Shown here: positions 4,117 to 11,837 of the stretch, one piece after another
Numbering within the stretch: the first letter of the stretch is position 1
Layout of the letters: every line of letters starts with the position of its first letter
From: Bacillota bacterium
Lineage (GTDB): Bacteria > Bacillota > Clostridia > Peptostreptococcales > Anaerovoracaceae
Length of the DNA stretch: 40,966 nucleotides
Assembly (NCBI GenBank): GCA_030526925.1
Contig: JAUNBU010000001.1
Span: 1-40,966, forward strand
Reading direction: 5' to 3'
The notes under the pieces: model-generated
Told to the model about the DNA's origin: nothing
Database searches by the model: none
What the model saw: the letters and a program-made list of their open reading frames with translations, nothing else
Made by a program: the position numbers and the translations under genes

Positions 4117-4365
4117 GTATGGAACCCCCACGGTAGATGCGGGGTTCAGTTTGTGAAAAGCGGGCTTGGCGTAGAAAATAGGACGGATGTGATAAAGAGA
4201 GAGTGGTATGTCTGTACGAAGAATACCGGTAATCGTTGACGTGGCGCGGTATTTAGGGTATGATAAGCTTGTATCGGCAAGATAATTTGAATATTCGATT
4301 AAAATGTCGAAATTTTGCCGATAATAATTTTGACACCATCTCTTGGAATCAAAAGGAGGTTAGTC

Positions 4366-5259
4366 TTGAAATACTTATCAGTAGCAGAAGTGGCTAAGCT
4401 GTGGAATATAGCGGAACGAACCGTGAGGAATTATTGTGCGCAAGGCAAGATAGAAGGCGCTTTTTTGACAGGGAAGACATGGAATATTCCGGCAACCGCA
4501 AAGCGTCCTGAAAGAATTAACAAACGCCCTAATCCATCACCTACGCTGTTAGAAATTTTGAAGGCTGAGAAACGTGATAAAATACCGGGGCGTATCTATC
4601 ATAAAATGCAAATCGACTTCACCTATAACTCCAATCATATGGAGGGCAGTCAGCTGACCCACGATCAGACCCGCTACATCTACGAAACGAATACCATTGG
4701 GCTTGAAAACCAGGCAATAAACGTGGACGATATTGTAGAAACTGTCAATCATTTTAGATGTGTTGATTTCGTAATTAATCATGCATCCCGCATGCTCACG
4801 GAAAAAATGATCAAAGAAATCCATGGGATATTAAAAAACGGAACGAGTGACAGCCGTAAAGAATGGTTTGCCGTAGGAGGCTACAAAAAACTTCCCAACG
4901 AGGTGGGCGGAAACGAAACGACACCACCGGAGCGTGTAGCCGCAGAGGTTAAGGGCTTGCTGGACAGCTATAACATTGAGCGACAAAAAAATCTGGAAGA
5001 CATTCTGGACTTTCATGTAAAATTCGAACGCATCCATCCTTTTCAGGACGGGAATGGACGCGTCGGTCGATTGATTTTATTGAAAGAATGCCTTCGCAAC
5101 AATATCATTCCGTTTATTATCGACGAAAACCTGAAACTGTTCTATTACAGAGGGATACAGCAATGGGGCGAAGAGAAAGGCTTTCTGATAGACACCTGCC
5201 TGACCGCCCAAGATCGCTTTAAAGAATGGTTAGACCACTTTGAGTACGACCAGAAATAG
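4366..5259 (+). CDS. Fic-domain protein with N-terminal excisionase-like HTH
   Basis: Fic motif HPFQDGNGRVGR; inhibitory-type motif SNHMEG; N-terminal YLSVAEVAKLWNIAERTVRNYC. TTG start at 4366 follows SD AAGGAGG. Confidence 0.9.
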   Translation: MKYLSVAEVAKLWNIAERTVRNYCAQGKIEGAFLTGKTWNIPATAKRPERINKRPNPSPTLLEILKAEKRDKIPGRIYHKMQIDFTYNSNHMEGSQLTHDQTRYIYETNTIGLENQAINVDDIVETVNHFRCVDFVINHASRMLTEKMIKEIHGILKNGTSDSRKEWFAVGGYKKLPNEVGGNETTPPERVAAEVKGLLDSYNIERQKNLEDILDFHVKFERIHPFQDGNGRVGRLILLKECLRNNIIPFIIDENLKLFYYRGIQQWGEEKGFLIDTCLTAQDRFKEWLDHFEYDQK

Positions 5260-8309: not shown

Positions 8310-9296
8310 ATGGCAAAGAGCAGCAACCAAAAACTGAAGGTTTTACATCTCGTGCGGATATTTCTGGAAAAGACCGACGAAGAGCACAGGATCTCTATCA
8401 AAGAACTGATCGACGGGCTGGCGCGGTACGGTATCGCCGCAGAGCGAAAGAGCCTTTACGACGACATCGAAGCCCTGAAGCTGTGGGGAATGGATATCCT
8501 TTACAGTAAGGAAAAGCCTGCCGGCTTCTATCTGGACAGATGGGATTTCGAAATGCCGGAGCTGAAGCTGCTGGTAGACGCTGTCCAGTCCTCCAAATTC
8601 ATTACCGAGAAAAAATCCTTCCAACTGATCAAAAAGCTGGAGAGTCTTGCCAGCAATCACGAGGCAAAGCAGCTGCAGCGGCAGGTTTACGTGACCAACC
8701 GCATCAAGACCATGAACGAGAGCATTTATTACAACGTGGACAAAATCCACGAAGCTATTTCTGCCAATGTGCAGATCAAATATCAGTATTTCGAGTGGAC
8801 CGTGGACAAGCAGATGCGCGCCCGGAAGAACGGCGAGCCTTATATCATCAGTCCTTGGGCCCTCACCTGGGATGATGAGAATTACTATATGATCGGCTTT
8901 GACGAAGATGCCGAGCTGGTGAAGCACTACCGGGTGGATAAAATGCAGAAGATCCAGCTGCTTGAAGCAGAACGAGCCGGGAAGGAAGCCTTTGAGGATT
9001 TCGATGTTGCCAGATTTGCAAAGCGCACTTTTGGCATGTTCGGCGGGCAGATTCGGCAGGTCACTTTGGAATGTGATAACGGGCTGGTAGGAACGATTCT
9101 GGACCGCTTCGGAAGTGACGTTATCTTGCAAAAGGTTGACAGTGGACATTTTCGCATCAGCCAGGAGGTCACCGTCAGCGGACAGTTTTACGGCTGGCTG
9201 GTTGGACTGGGCAGCGGCATCAAAATCATAGATCCGGACGACATAGCAGAAGAGTTCCAACAGAGACTGGCAGAAATCATGAAAGGGTACCGGTAA
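8310..9296 (+). CDS. wHTH-WYL-WCX transcriptional regulator
   Basis: N-terminal HTH (ERKSLYDDIEAL); WYL core SPWALTWDDENYYMIG...HYRVDKM; FYGWLVGLG..IKIIDP tail. ATG at 8310 follows GAAAGGGG. Confidence 0.9.
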   Translation: MAKSSNQKLKVLHLVRIFLEKTDEEHRISIKELIDGLARYGIAAERKSLYDDIEALKLWGMDILYSKEKPAGFYLDRWDFEMPELKLLVDAVQSSKFITEKKSFQLIKKLESLASNHEAKQLQRQVYVTNRIKTMNESIYYNVDKIHEAISANVQIKYQYFEWTVDKQMRARKNGEPYIISPWALTWDDENYYMIGFDEDAELVKHYRVDKMQKIQLLEAERAGKEAFEDFDVARFAKRTFGMFGGQIRQVTLECDNGLVGTILDRFGSDVILQKVDSGHFRISQEVTVSGQFYGWLVGLGSGIKIIDPDDIAEEFQQRLAEIMKGYR

Positions 9297-9336: not shown

Positions 9337-9366
9337 TTGCGAACGTATGTTTGTATATGATATAAT
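9337..9366 (+). promoter_or_regulatory. SigA promoter with a LexA (SOS/Cheo) box overlapping the -35
   Basis: CGAACGTATGTTTG (9340-9353) fits the Firmicutes CGAAC-N4-GTTYG consensus; TTGCGA-18-TATAAT with extended TG. Confidence 0.8.
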
Positions 9367-9412
9367 AGTCTTGTAAGTCGGAGGGGTACAGTAGTATTGG
9401 AGGAACGAGATT

Positions 9413-10252
9413 ATGGGAAACAGTAATCACATTCAAAGATTTGGGGATTCTTGGACAGAAGTAAAGCTGAAAGCATTGGATAATTATTTGGAAGCTTATT
9501 GTAAAATCATGAAAAACCAAAATTTCAAGACATATTACATTGATGCTTTCGCAGGGAGTGGGGAAATTTTGCTGAAGCAAGGGAGAGAGATTAAAGGCTC
9601 TGCCGCTATTGCAACAAAGTACGACTTTGATTATTATATTTTTGTGGAGGAAAACGAAGCATTTATTAACATGCTTGAAAAAAATTTGATGGCTTCACCC
9701 AAGTATTCCAGAATGTTATTTGTGAATAAAGACTGTAATGATTTTTTAGAAAGACTAGATCAAATAAACTGGATAGGAGAACAAAAACGTGGTGTGATAT
9801 TTTTGGATCCATACGCCATGCAACTTAGTTGGAGTACTCTCGAAAAAATAGCCAAAACAAAGGCGTTAGATGTCTGGTACCTATTTCCGCTTATGGCGTC
9901 TAATCGTACTTTATTTAAAGATAAAGTAAAAATAAAAGAAAGTACAAAAAAGCAATTAACTCGGCTTTTTGGAACAACTGAATGGGAAGAAGAGATTTAT
10001 AGAGCACCAGAGCAGATAAGCCTGTTTGACGGACCGGATAATAAAGAAAAAGTAACTACGGAAGAACTGAAAAAGTTTATATTAAAAAGGCTGAACACAA
10101 TATTTCCTGCAGTATCAAATAATGCGGTTGTGTTGAAAAACAGCAGAAATGCACCAATGTTTTTGCTTTGTTTTGCAGTGGGCAATCCAAGCAATAAAGC
10201 GAAAGCAGTTGCAATGAGAGTTGCAGATTACTTACTGAAACATATGGAATAG
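9413..10252 (+). CDS. tcmP: Three-Cys-motif partner protein TcmP (SAM-dependent methyltransferase-like fold)
   Basis: WTEVKLKAL..YL..Y, YIDAFAGSG, GSA..A, FVE and FLDPYAMQLSW motifs; adjacent to DUF5131; SD GGAGG; AT-rich. Confidence 0.85.
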   Translation: MGNSNHIQRFGDSWTEVKLKALDNYLEAYCKIMKNQNFKTYYIDAFAGSGEILLKQGREIKGSAAIATKYDFDYYIFVEENEAFINMLEKNLMASPKYSRMLFVNKDCNDFLERLDQINWIGEQKRGVIFLDPYAMQLSWSTLEKIAKTKALDVWYLFPLMASNRTLFKDKVKIKESTKKQLTRLFGTTEWEEEIYRAPEQISLFDGPDNKEKVTTEELKKFILKRLNTIFPAVSNNAVVLKNSRNAPMFLLCFAVGNPSNKAKAVAMRVADYLLKHME

Positions 10253-10264
10253 TTGGGAGGAAAC

Positions 10265-11014
10265 ATGGCACAGAAATCAAAAATTGAATGGACTGAGAAC
10301 ACATGGAATCCAGTTACAGGATGTAGCAAAATTTCTGAGGGTTGCGTGAATTGTTACGCTGAAAGGATGGCTAACAGACTTTGCAAAATGGGGTTGAACA
10401 AATACGAAAATGCGTTTGATGTTGCTATCCATGAAGAATGTTTGGGCGAGCCCTACACATGGAAAAACCCGAGAAGAATTTTCGTCAATTCCATGTCAGA
10501 TTTATATCATGATGGAGTCCCTTTAGAGTTTGTCAAGAGAATTTTTGAAGTCATGAATGAAACGCCACAACACACATACCAGTTACTTACGAAACGTGCA
10601 GAAAAAATGTTCGAATTGTCCGATGAGTTTGCCTGGACAGATAATATTTGGCAAGGAGTGACTGTTGAGAGTAAGAAACATGTTGATAGAATCGATTTCC
10701 TAAGAAATATGCCGGCACATATTAAGTTCATTTCTTTTGAGCCTTTGCTGGAAGACTTTGGGGAAATAGACCTGACCAATATTGATTGGGTGATAGTAGG
10801 TGGAGAAAGCGGCTGGCATGCCAGACCGATGAAAGAAGAGTGGGTTCTTAATATCAAACAACAGTGTGAAGAGCAAAGCGTGCTGTTTTATTTCAAACAG
10901 TGGGGAGGAACGAACAAGAAAAAGACAGGTCGTATGTTGCTTGATCAGACTTGGGATGCGATGCCGGAATTACAAATTGCAGAAGTTTCCCAAAAAGTAA
11001 TCGTAGATCGTTAG
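10265..11014 (+). CDS. DUF5131 / phage Gp37-Gp68-family radical-SAM-like protein
   Basis: SKIEWTENTWNPVTGCSKISEGCVNCYAE (Cx6Cx2C), FVNSMSDLYH, LLTKR, SFEPLL, WVIVGGESG and FKQWGG motifs. ATG at 10265 follows GGGAGG. Confidence 0.92.
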   Translation: MAQKSKIEWTENTWNPVTGCSKISEGCVNCYAERMANRLCKMGLNKYENAFDVAIHEECLGEPYTWKNPRRIFVNSMSDLYHDGVPLEFVKRIFEVMNETPQHTYQLLTKRAEKMFELSDEFAWTDNIWQGVTVESKKHVDRIDFLRNMPAHIKFISFEPLLEDFGEIDLTNIDWVIVGGESGWHARPMKEEWVLNIKQQCEEQSVLFYFKQWGGTNKKKTGRMLLDQTWDAMPELQIAEVSQKVIVDR

Positions 11015-11030
11015 GGGGAATACTATCTGA

Positions 11031-11837
11031 ATGAACCAATCCAAAGACGACAAGATCCTCCTGGCTAATGCGGAGGACAAATTTCAACAGTGCATCCGGC
11101 AGTACCGGATCACCTACACTAATTTTTTGGATTTGCGGCAGCGATCCCTGGTGAGCAGTTTATGTAAAGAGCTGGCTCGCGGCAATCGGGAGGTTCGCTG
11201 CGCATTTTTTGGTGGCTACGAAGATGCCGAACGAACGCTGGCGGTCTTTTTCCCCGACTATGTCGAGCCGTGGCAGTTCAATGAAAAAGGACTCTTGTCC
11301 GATGCGCCGGAAGACTGCCCCCTATCCATCATTCGCATCAAGGCGCCTGCCGGTGGCCGCAAGCTGACCCATCGTGATTACCTGGGTTCCCTGACCGGCC
11401 TTGGGCTGAAGCGGGAGATGATAGGCGACATTCTGACGACCGAAAACGGTGCCGACGTCATAATCATGGACGAAATCAAAGGCTTTCTTCTGCTCAACTA
11501 CAGCAAGGCAGGCCGGGCCAATCTGCTGCTGGAAGCAGTCAACCTAATGGAGCTTTCCATACCTGAGACGAAGACTGCCCTTGTAAAAGACACGGTGGCA
11601 TCCCTGCGCCTGGACAATCTGGTAGCGTCCGCCTTTTCCATGTCACGTGCCAAGGCCGCAGAGGCTATCCGCACAGGGATAGTATTTATCGACAGCGCCC
11701 AGGCGGAGAAGCCGGATATGCAGGTGGCAGAAGGCGCCAAGCTGGTCCTTCGTGGAAAGGGCAAGGCGTACCTACGCCAGGTGGGCGGCAGAACGCGCAA
11801 AGACCGGATCGCCATCACCATCGAACGGTATCTATAA
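11031..11837 (+). CDS. ylmH: YlmH/Sll1252-family S4-domain RNA-binding protein
   Basis: TNFLD, GGYEDAER, LTHRDYLGSL, GDI, VASLRLD and RGKGK motifs. Confidence 0.9.
   Translation: MNQSKDDKILLANAEDKFQQCIRQYRITYTNFLDLRQRSLVSSLCKELARGNREVRCAFFGGYEDAERTLAVFFPDYVEPWQFNEKGLLSDAPEDCPLSIIRIKAPAGGRKLTHRDYLGSLTGLGLKREMIGDILTTENGADVIIMDEIKGFLLLNYSKAGRANLLLEAVNLMELSIPETKTALVKDTVASLRLDNLVASAFSMSRAKAAEAIRTGIVFIDSAQAEKPDMQVAEGAKLVLRGKGKAYLRQVGGRTRKDRIAITIERYL

What the first reader, a model, noticed from the sequence alone, without database searches (positions are those of the whole stretch)
9337..11014. LexA-boxed, AT-rich TcmP + DUF5131 islet: candidate damage-inducible DNA modification, repair or defence system
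Seen: a consensus Firmicutes SOS box overlapping the -35, two tightly spaced genes visibly more AT-rich than the flanks, a methyltransferase-like protein (IDAFAGSG, FLDPY) and a Cx6Cx2C radical-SAM-like protein. Known: the two families co-occur widely, DUF5131 also occurs in phages, and I know of no established biochemical function for the pair. From recall, to be verified: the M. tuberculosis pair Rv2734/Rv2735c lies beside recX-recA and is damage-inducible. Inference: a horizontally acquired two-enzyme SAM-dependent module that acts on nucleic acid during SOS or phage infection, here next to a WYL sensor.
Basis: partly seen in the sequence, partly recalled or inferred. Interest (0 to 1): 0.82.

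Follow-up and report, generated by a model that had tools for sequence, protein, structure and literature searches.

The report
SOS-switched methylase plus radical-SAM cassette
Two AT-rich, likely imported genes, a methyltransferase-shaped protein and a radical-SAM-type enzyme shaped like a DNA-repair lyase, sit behind a sequence matching the host's own DNA-damage operators; the pair is already catalogued as an untested anti-phage candidate and likely alters DNA bases, with the methyltransferase-shaped protein as the exchangeable part.

Summary
tcmP (9413-10252, TIGR04474) and DUF5131 (10265-11014, PF07505) form a low-GC pair (37.7% against 50% for the genome) that matches PADLOC candidate PDC-M41. 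A LexA-type box covers the -35; a matrix built from this genome's lexA, recA, uvrB and ruvC boxes ranks it 5th in 2.06 Mb. Such boxes precede 19 of 26 close Bacillota homologues against 9 of 215 control genes, but only 4 of 17 in an unbiased Clostridia draw, so SOS wiring is a subclade trait. TcmP is an RlmJ/Trm1-like amino-methyltransferase fold that keeps the catalytic Lys and Asp. The DUF5131 model is nearest to spore photoproduct lyase. In three Gordonia phages DUF5131 is 96-98% identical while the adjacent TcmPs are 21-23% identical, as in conflict systems. The WYL link looks incidental. Best reading (0.4): a damage-induced, two-step DNA base-modification module used against mobile DNA; no chemistry is shown. 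I found no functional study in print. This scan has reported the pair many times on other DNA, including the SOS and RlmJ leads. Verdict: a new member of a known, uncharacterised kind.

The parts
9337..9366 (+). Sigma-70-type promoter: -35 TTGCGA, 18-nt spacer, extended -10 TG-n-TATAAT
   Evidence: 10 of 12 matches; a consensus match only
9340..9353 (.). LexA-type operator CGAAC-GTAT-GTTTG over the -35 and spacer
   Evidence: same motif before 19 of 26 close homologues
9413..10252 (+). tcmP, 279 aa; RlmJ/Trm1-like class I amino-methyltransferase fold; K18, D44-x-x-x-G48-x-G50, D132-P133-Y134, R165
   Evidence: TIGR04474 E 6.5e-52; PDC-M41A E 9e-83; model and fold searches; profile match to RlmJ; conservation
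10265..11014 (+). DUF5131 (Gp37/Gp68), 249 aa; radical-SAM fold with Cx6Cx2C (C20, C27, C30) and GGESG; nearest solved fold is spore photoproduct lyase
   Evidence: PF07505 E 1.7e-97; PDC-M41B E 2e-118
8310..9296 (+). WYL-WCX regulator; neighbour with host-like composition, probably not part of the module
11031..11837 (+). ylmH-like S4 RNA-binding gene; host gene starting 16 nt after the DUF5131 stop (right flank)

Best explanation
This is a likely horizontally acquired two-gene operon behind a LexA-type operator, likely switched on by DNA damage, in which TcmP likely methylates a base amino group in DNA and the SPL-like radical-SAM enzyme is predicted to carry out radical chemistry at that marked base, probably as defence against phage or other mobile DNA. 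Shown: the genes, their folds (as models), the conserved catalytic residues, the operator match, the patchy distribution and the exchange of TcmP. Inferred, step by step: (1) RecA-triggered LexA cleavage opens the promoter, which would also happen during phage or prophage replication. (2) TcmP binds SAM, flips a base and N-methylates it (adenine N6 by RlmJ kinship; guanine N2 by Trm1 kinship is open); different TcmP variants would pick different sites. (3) DUF5131 binds a [4Fe-4S] cluster through Cx6Cx2C, forms a 5'-deoxyadenosyl radical and abstracts H from the new N-methyl or a neighbouring base, giving a bulkier or cross-linked base. It would read the chemical mark, not the sequence, which explains why one enzyme sits beside very different TcmPs.
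For: Folds: TcmP model (pLDDT 93) hits RlmJ first in Foldseek (E 6e-8); Trm1 Z 14.8 (rmsd 4.0, 216 aligned) and RlmJ Z 14.2 (rmsd 3.6, 204 aligned) are tied. Profile match to RlmJ: probability 95%, against at most 1.3% for 20 shuffled targets; D132 aligns with D164 and, in low-confidence columns, K18 with K18; both residues are essential in RlmJ (PMC3814359, passages). K18 is kept in 61, D132 in 62 and P133 in 63 of 63 TcmPs. DUF5131 model (pLDDT 83): SPL Z 14.2 (rmsd 3.0, 196 aligned), next viperin 12.1. DNA rather than RNA: one of five long TcmPs scanned has a weak C-terminal winged-helix match (PF22560 E 3e-5, under the cut-off), plus SOS control and RM neighbours. Conflict signature: in three Gordonia phages DUF5131 is 96-98% identical while the TcmPs are 21-23% identical, all pass TIGR04474 and all abut the immunity repressor gene; RM, toxin-antitoxin or Abi-type genes lie within about 5 kb in 10 of 22 loci (no background control); PDC systems were picked by embedding in RM, BREX or DISARM. 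Coupling: 47 of 56 TcmP loci have a radical-SAM neighbour, 40 DUF5131 and 7 of other SPL-like types. Predicted complex: weak support, 0.43 against best control 0.03; runs share at least 36% of contacts, partner pLDDT at least 80; the mark was reached by 116 of 157 solved and 2 of 215 mismatched pairs, but at 0.60 or under by only 18 solved ones and both mismatches.
Against: No activity, substrate, induction or phage phenotype is shown here or in the papers found. RlmJ and Trm1 act on RNA, and RlmJ did not methylate single-stranded DNA. The catalytic motif is D-P-Y, one residue short of DPPY, so catalysis may differ or be absent. The Foldseek match of DUF5131 to SPL is weak (E 1.9e-3, RlmN nearly equal). 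This copy lies among housekeeping genes, as do 6 of 22 relatives, and has no nuclease. The box is missing in 13 of 17 unbiased Clostridia genomes, and only 2 of 24 non-Bacillota loci matched a recalled phylum motif. The phage TcmP swap could be dragged along by exchange of the repressor module. DUF5131 occurs far more often than TcmP (74 of 400 against 18 of 401 genomes), so it can act alone.
Confidence: 0.4

Rival explanations
1. Writer-eraser pair, like DarTG in logic (recalled): TcmP puts a pairing-blocking (for example N,N-dimethyl) mark on DNA, and the SOS-induced radical-SAM enzyme removes it from host DNA; solo phage DUF5131 genes would be counter-defence.
For: TcmP is rarely without a radical-SAM gene (47 of 56) while DUF5131 is often alone. 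In L083 and L088 the box stands before the radical-SAM gene only. An altered first proline of motif IV goes with dimethylation in KsgA/ErmC'.
Against: Intact TcmP genes without an adjacent radical-SAM gene exist (L066, L091, L093), and the L093 genome has its DUF5131 broken elsewhere. Here both genes share one LexA-type promoter. TcmP's motif change is a deletion, not the KsgA substitution.
Confidence: 0.2
2. An accessory DNA-repair enzyme: DUF5131 reverses a photoproduct- or cross-link-type lesion as SPL does, and TcmP is its DNA-binding, base-flipping subunit or primes the lesion.
For: SPL is the nearest fold and the model aligns only from SPL residue 70 on; DUF5131 is acidic (net -8) and TcmP basic (+6); weak complex score; strong LexA signal in the subclade; SplB-like radical-SAM genes are known SOS neighbours (PMC3765255, passages).
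Against: A repair subunit would not be expected to be replaced by 21%-identical variants beside a 96%-identical enzyme. The pair is rare and patchy and often sits in RM operons or prophage immunity regions. Solo chromosomal DUF5131 genes have no box (0 of 22).
Confidence: 0.2
3. The target is RNA: TcmP and the radical-SAM enzyme modify rRNA, tRNA or phage mRNA to slow translation (dormancy or abortive infection) after damage.
For: All nearest TcmP folds are RNA methyltransferases (RlmJ, Trm1, RsmD); RlmN ranks second for DUF5131 in Foldseek.
Against: RlmJ's active site is itself DNA-methylase-like; only the three cluster cysteines are conserved across 31 diverse DUF5131 partners, so an RlmN-type mechanism lacks its extra cysteines (RlmN mechanism recalled); a fixed rRNA or tRNA site would not favour hypervariable TcmPs.
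Confidence: 0.15
4. A three-gene unit in which the upstream WYL protein senses damage or phage and controls the pair.
For: WYL and the pair both lie in the slot between cotJC and ylmH, which is empty in one same-genus genome; L020 has a WYL gene just downstream of the pair.
Against: 1 of 22 related loci has a WYL neighbour; the WYL gene has host-like GC3 (0.66); its orthologues occur without the pair; the pair has its own promoter and operator.
Confidence: 0.04

Closest known systems
TcmP (NCBIfam TIGR04474) + DUF5131/Gp37-Gp68 (Pfam PF07505) = PADLOC candidates PDC-M41 (short TcmP) and PDC-M30 (long TcmP); Payne et al., bioRxiv 10.1101/2024.01.29.577857
   Same: Both proteins pass the family cut-offs or match the PADLOC models; same adjacent two-gene layout.
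   Different: Nothing structural. This copy stands among housekeeping genes with its own LexA-boxed promoter. The main text of the preprint does not name PDC-M41, and the PDCs are put forward as predictions; its supplements could not be read.
RlmJ (23S rRNA m6A2030 methyltransferase, PF04378) and Trm1 (tRNA G26 N2-dimethyltransferase)
   Same: Class I fold, N-terminal Lys, D-x-x-A-G-x-G then an insert then G-S-x, catalytic Asp after strand 4.
   Different: About 14% identity; D-P-Y instead of DPPY; a short hairpin in place of RlmJ's helical insert; no Pfam RsmJ match; mobile and tied to a radical-SAM gene.
Spore photoproduct lyase and SplB-like SOS radical-SAM enzymes (TIGR04070, NF038135, NF033668; RadicalSAM.org Megacluster 5)
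   Same: Nearest solved fold; DUF5131 is Megacluster-5-2 beside SPL 5-3 (PMC9477430); SplB-like enzymes replace DUF5131 as TcmP partner in many Clostridia.
   Different: Cx6Cx2C in place of Cx3Cx2C; about 100 residues shorter, no counterpart of SPL's first 69 residues; 12% identity; no TIGR04070 match.

Membership tests
TcmP (TIGR04474) | HMM score above the curated cut-off of 53 bits | tested here: met
   177 bits
DUF5131 (PF07505) | HMM score above the gathering cut-off, full length | tested here: met
   326 bits, profile 1-243 of 243
PADLOC PDC-M41 | Adjacent genes matching PDC-M41A and PDC-M41B | tested here: met
   E 9e-83 and 2e-118, 12 nt apart; PADLOC's own rule file was not run
PADLOC PDC-M41 | Anti-phage activity | not testable with these tools
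   candidate by embedding only
Radical SAM superfamily | Three conserved cysteines on a partial TIM barrel | tested here: met
   C20, C27, C30 invariant in 120 homologues; radical-SAM folds fill the top 23 rows
Radical SAM superfamily | Canonical Cx3Cx2C spacing | tested here: not met
   spacing is Cx6Cx2C
Radical SAM superfamily | [4Fe-4S] binding and reductive SAM cleavage | not testable with these tools
   needs anaerobic biochemistry
Spore photoproduct lyase | TIGR04070/PF20903 match and full-length architecture | tested here: not met
   no match; the model aligns only to SPL residues 70-341
RlmJ family | PF04378 match and DPPY motif IV | tested here: not met
   no PF04378 hit; motif is DPY/DPF
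Amino-methyltransferases (works-like) | Motif I D-x-x-x-G-x-G, motif IV Asp-Pro-aromatic, motif X Lys | tested here: met
   the Lys equivalence rests on low-confidence columns
Amino-methyltransferases (works-like) | Methyl transfer to a base amino group | not testable with these tools
   no assay
LexA regulon | Host-type operator overlapping the promoter, lexA and recA in the genome | tested here: met
LexA regulon | LexA binding and damage induction | not testable with these tools
   needs a gel shift or expression data

The most novel reading that the evidence does not exclude
TcmP-radical-SAM cassettes are a radical-chemistry counterpart of restriction-modification: an exchangeable RlmJ-derived DNA methylase marks sites, and an SPL-derived enzyme, switched on by SOS, turns the mark into a cross-link or an undescribed hypermodified base that stops phage or prophage DNA, with solo phage DUF5131 genes as the counter-move.
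Probability: 0.2. Interest if true: 0.88.

Novelty: new member of a known kind. Interest (0 to 1): 0.5.

Why it matters
DUF5131 is a large radical-SAM branch for which I found no functional study, and TcmP is its uncharacterised partner. The LexA operator says when to look (DNA damage, prophage induction), the RlmJ alignment names the residues to mutate (K18, D132), and the Gordonia phage set offers natural variants with one near-identical enzyme and three different TcmPs in a harmless, tractable host. A positive result would give a new DNA base chemistry and either a new defence or a new repair route. This copy adds one more example and no new architecture.

Tried and rejected
Sequence searches of the PDB gave only a weak RsmD-like hit for TcmP (E 0.009) and nothing for DUF5131. 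No sequencing run was listed for the locus; that is no evidence on expression. No flanking direct repeat longer than 7 nt was found around the islet. Paper searches: DUF5131 gave 1 paper, a table entry; TcmP and related terms gave two annotation mentions among 40 listed of 639 mostly unrelated hits; PDC-M41/PDC-M30/Gp37Gp68 gave 5 listings, none with PDC-M41, not opened; radical SAM + SPL + SOS + LexA gave 1; radical SAM + methyltransferase + defence gave 3, one opened (Ophion, a different system); Trm1 + DPFG gave 0, so that motif stays recalled; GMT-wHTH terms gave nothing relevant, so reading 'GMT' as guanine methyltransferase is recalled only; TcmP + radical SAM gave 1 general SAM review, not opened. 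A forced global alignment to a single RlmJ sequence failed (first run). Pairwise distances of 31 TcmP-DUF5131 pairs correlate only moderately (Spearman 0.47; pairs are not independent), so no co-evolution claim is made. The idea that solo phage DUF5131 genes stand directly beside DNA methylases was not borne out in the four solo records opened: methylases lay 0.9 and 2.3 kb away in two, and none was annotated in the other two. A strict toxin-antitoxin reading and a WYL three-gene system were lowered as given above. The family identity of Rv2734/Rv2735c could not be tested; two papers call Rv2735c hypothetical, 330 aa. The Fisher test printed used a miscount (18 of 26) and is replaced.

Full report
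Observation. The window holds two tightly spaced genes on the + strand, 9413-10252 (279 aa) and 10265-11014 (249 aa), between a WYL-WCX gene and a ylmH-like gene. The first passes TIGR04474 TcmP (177 bits, cut-off 53), the second PF07505 DUF5131 over its whole profile. PADLOC models PDC-M41A and PDC-M41B match at E 9e-83 and 2e-118. The islet has 37.7% GC against 50.0% for the genome, in the lowest 1% of 3386 windows; GC3 is 0.33 and 0.41 against 0.60-0.67 for three flanking genes.

The operator. CGAAC-GTAT-GTTTG (9340-9353) overlaps a -35 TTGCGA, 18 nt before TATAAT. The genome (84% complete) has lexA and recA. Boxes of the form RAAC-N4-GTTY stand before lexA, recA and genes read by eye as uvrB and ruvC; the ruvC box differs by one base and is also followed by TATGAT. 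A matrix from those four sites alone ranks the islet box fifth in 2.06 Mb, behind three training sites and one site at a contig end. Among 56 related loci I took the 25 Bacillota loci whose TcmP start was matched, plus L004; five Bacillota loci without a matched start were left out. Of these 26, 19 carry the box within 220 bp, mostly just before the ribosome-binding site, against 9 of 215 other ORFs in the same loci, two of which are the same boxes seen from a divergent ORF. After collapsing near-duplicates it is 15 of 22; kin are not independent, so the P values overstate. Against a universal rule: in an even draw of 400 Clostridia genomes, 17 besides this one had TcmP over the cut-off, and only 4 had a box at the pair, in two cases before the radical-SAM gene only; many of the others lie inside longer operons, and several loci are cut short upstream. 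One of 7 further non-Bacillota tandem loci had the box, and 2 of 24 non-Bacillota loci matched a recalled phylum motif. None of 22 solo DUF5131 genes examined (of 73 other genomes with a hit) had a box. SOS wiring is therefore a feature of this subclade and of some other pairs.

Mobility. TcmP was found in 1 of 76 other genomes of the genus (a long variant with another partner) and 3 of 150 of the family. The window protein stands alone in its 90% cluster; its nearest relatives are about 50% identical. One same-genus genome has cotJC 151 bp before ylmH, with neither WYL nor the pair; the other 13 of 14 ylmH loci have other neighbours. None of 8 same-genus WYL orthologue loci shows the pair (two cut at the 3' side), and 1 of 22 related loci has a WYL neighbour. 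In those 22 loci (four near-duplicates left out), 10 have RM, toxin-antitoxin or Abi-type genes within about 5 kb, 3 only insertion sequences, 6 only housekeeping genes, and 3 are unclear; no background rate was measured. TcmP also matched 12 plasmid records.

TcmP. The model (pLDDT 93) is a class I methyltransferase fold. Foldseek ranks RlmJ first (E 6e-8); the wide search ties Trm1 (Z 14.8) and RlmJ (Z 14.2) above a dense field at 12-13.8; the ESM Atlas names RlmJ clusters as the nearest with a family, at 0.80-0.82, a lead only. A profile of 63 TcmPs aligns to four RlmJ sequences at 95% probability, against at most 1.3% for 20 column-shuffled controls. YIDAFAGSG pairs with YLDTHAGAG, GSA with GSP after the insert, and RGVIFLDP-Y with RGLILIDPPY. 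K18 aligns with RlmJ K18 only when the threshold is relaxed. RlmJ needs K18 and D164, and its site resembles DNA m6A methylases (PMC3814359; abstract and passages). In 63 TcmPs, two of them N-terminally cut, K18 and G50 are kept in 61, D44 in 60, D132 in 62, P133 in 63, Y/F134 in 59 and R165 in 57. This argues for an active amino-methyltransferase site; base and polymer are not determined.

DUF5131. The model (pLDDT 83, C-terminal 35 residues poor) is nearest to spore photoproduct lyase (Z 14.2, rmsd 3.0, 196 aligned to residues 70-341; Foldseek E 1.9e-3 with RlmN close behind). RadicalSAM.org lists DUF5131 as Megacluster-5-2 beside SPL (PMC9477430, one passage). Only the three motif cysteines are conserved across 31 diverse partners.

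How the two relate. Of 56 TcmP loci, 40 have DUF5131 and 7 another SPL-like radical-SAM gene next door; of the other 9, two end at a contig edge, five have a broken TcmP, one has an aberrant C-terminus and one is intact and alone. In the Clostridia draw the partner is DUF5131 in 5, a Cx3Cx3C SplB-like enzyme in 8, another type in 1, none in 2 and unknown in 1 of 17. Two loci have two TcmP genes and one radical-SAM gene (L084/L109, L050). DUF5131 is far commoner than TcmP: 74 of 400 against 18 of 401 genomes and 178 against 5 phage records, though the TcmP query misses divergent members. In Gordonia phages PantheRoc, Fairfaxidum and Bosnia, DUF5131 is 96-98% identical while the convergent TcmPs are 21-23% identical; all pass TIGR04474, DNA similarity stops at the 3' end of DUF5131, and each tcmP directly follows the immunity repressor gene. 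The repressors differ too, so the swap may ride on the immunity module. A predicted complex of the window's two proteins got weak support (0.43, best control 0.03; runs share at least 36% of contacts; partner pLDDT at least 80; at this level the mark is more often wrong than right unless likely beforehand).

Mechanism. A constant radical enzyme with an exchangeable methyltransferase, a patchy distribution, RM and prophage-immunity addresses and SOS control fit best a module that alters DNA bases in conflict with mobile DNA: TcmP would choose and methylate a site, and DUF5131 would react at the mark (0.4). Writer-eraser (0.2), accessory repair (0.2), an RNA target (0.15) and a WYL-run trio (0.04) remain. 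All chemical steps are inference.

What is known. Payne et al. (bioRxiv 10.1101/2024.01.29.577857; passages) put forward 145 predicted candidates found embedded in RM, BREX or DISARM; PDC-M41 is not named in the main text, and the supplements, which are closed, may bear on it. In S. meliloti a tcmP gene is up-regulated with hna (PMC12445080, table passage). In M. tuberculosis Rv2735c is co-transcribed with recA-recX (PMC3062782, passages), and Rv2734, Rv2735c, recX and recA form a mitomycin C-responsive cluster (PMC5057432, passage); their family identity is recalled, not tested. Ten paper searches found no functional study in the open library, which lacks most subscription papers. The scan's own notes hold 13 findings with the SOS reading and 38 with the RlmJ reading; one is marked as in print without naming the paper, which I could not resolve beyond the PADLOC listing.

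Verdict. Real feature, likely a real operator, known but uncharacterised family: a new member of a known kind, interest 0.5.

Noticed in passing
window 11015-11030 and 10665-10692: ylmH starts 16 nt after the DUF5131 stop with no terminator-like site between, so it may be read from the LexA-boxed promoter or from a promoter-like site inside DUF5131.
   Followed up: partly
window 4315-5259: A second lower-GC gene (0.43): HTH_17 + Fic protein, probably another acquired gene.
   Followed up: no
G000 C73:9147-9160: The gene read as ruvC has an almost identical box and -10 layout to the tcmP promoter.
   Followed up: yes
G000 C51:8495: A perfect GAAC-N4-GTTC lies 81 nt before an AT-rich 620-aa gene that looks by eye like an ASCH/PIN/acetyltransferase-type defence protein; possibly a second SOS-controlled acquired gene.
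   Followed up: no
L084/L109 (G452 C198) and L050: Two different TcmP genes share one radical-SAM gene; in L084 a gene that looks like a type III methylase follows.
   Followed up: partly
L118 (Gordonia phage BaxterFox): An intact DUF5131 frame on the opposite strand is not annotated; two short antisense ORFs are annotated in its place.
   Followed up: yes
L028 and L046, upstream of tcmP: Two Chloroflexota loci share a conserved upstream stretch around the -10 (TGCCAATAAT..TCACAGG..GTATAATCC..AACAAGATT) without a GAAC-N4-GTTC box; possibly another operator.
   Followed up: no
L127-L148: A separate, common clade of solo DUF5131 genes (WNPWHGC type) lies in varied chromosomal places in Clostridia, without TcmP or LexA box.
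   Followed up: partly
L036:8004-10837: TcmP + SplB-like radical SAM is followed by a YunG-uracil-DNA-glycosylase fusion, a repair-type neighbourhood.
   Followed up: no
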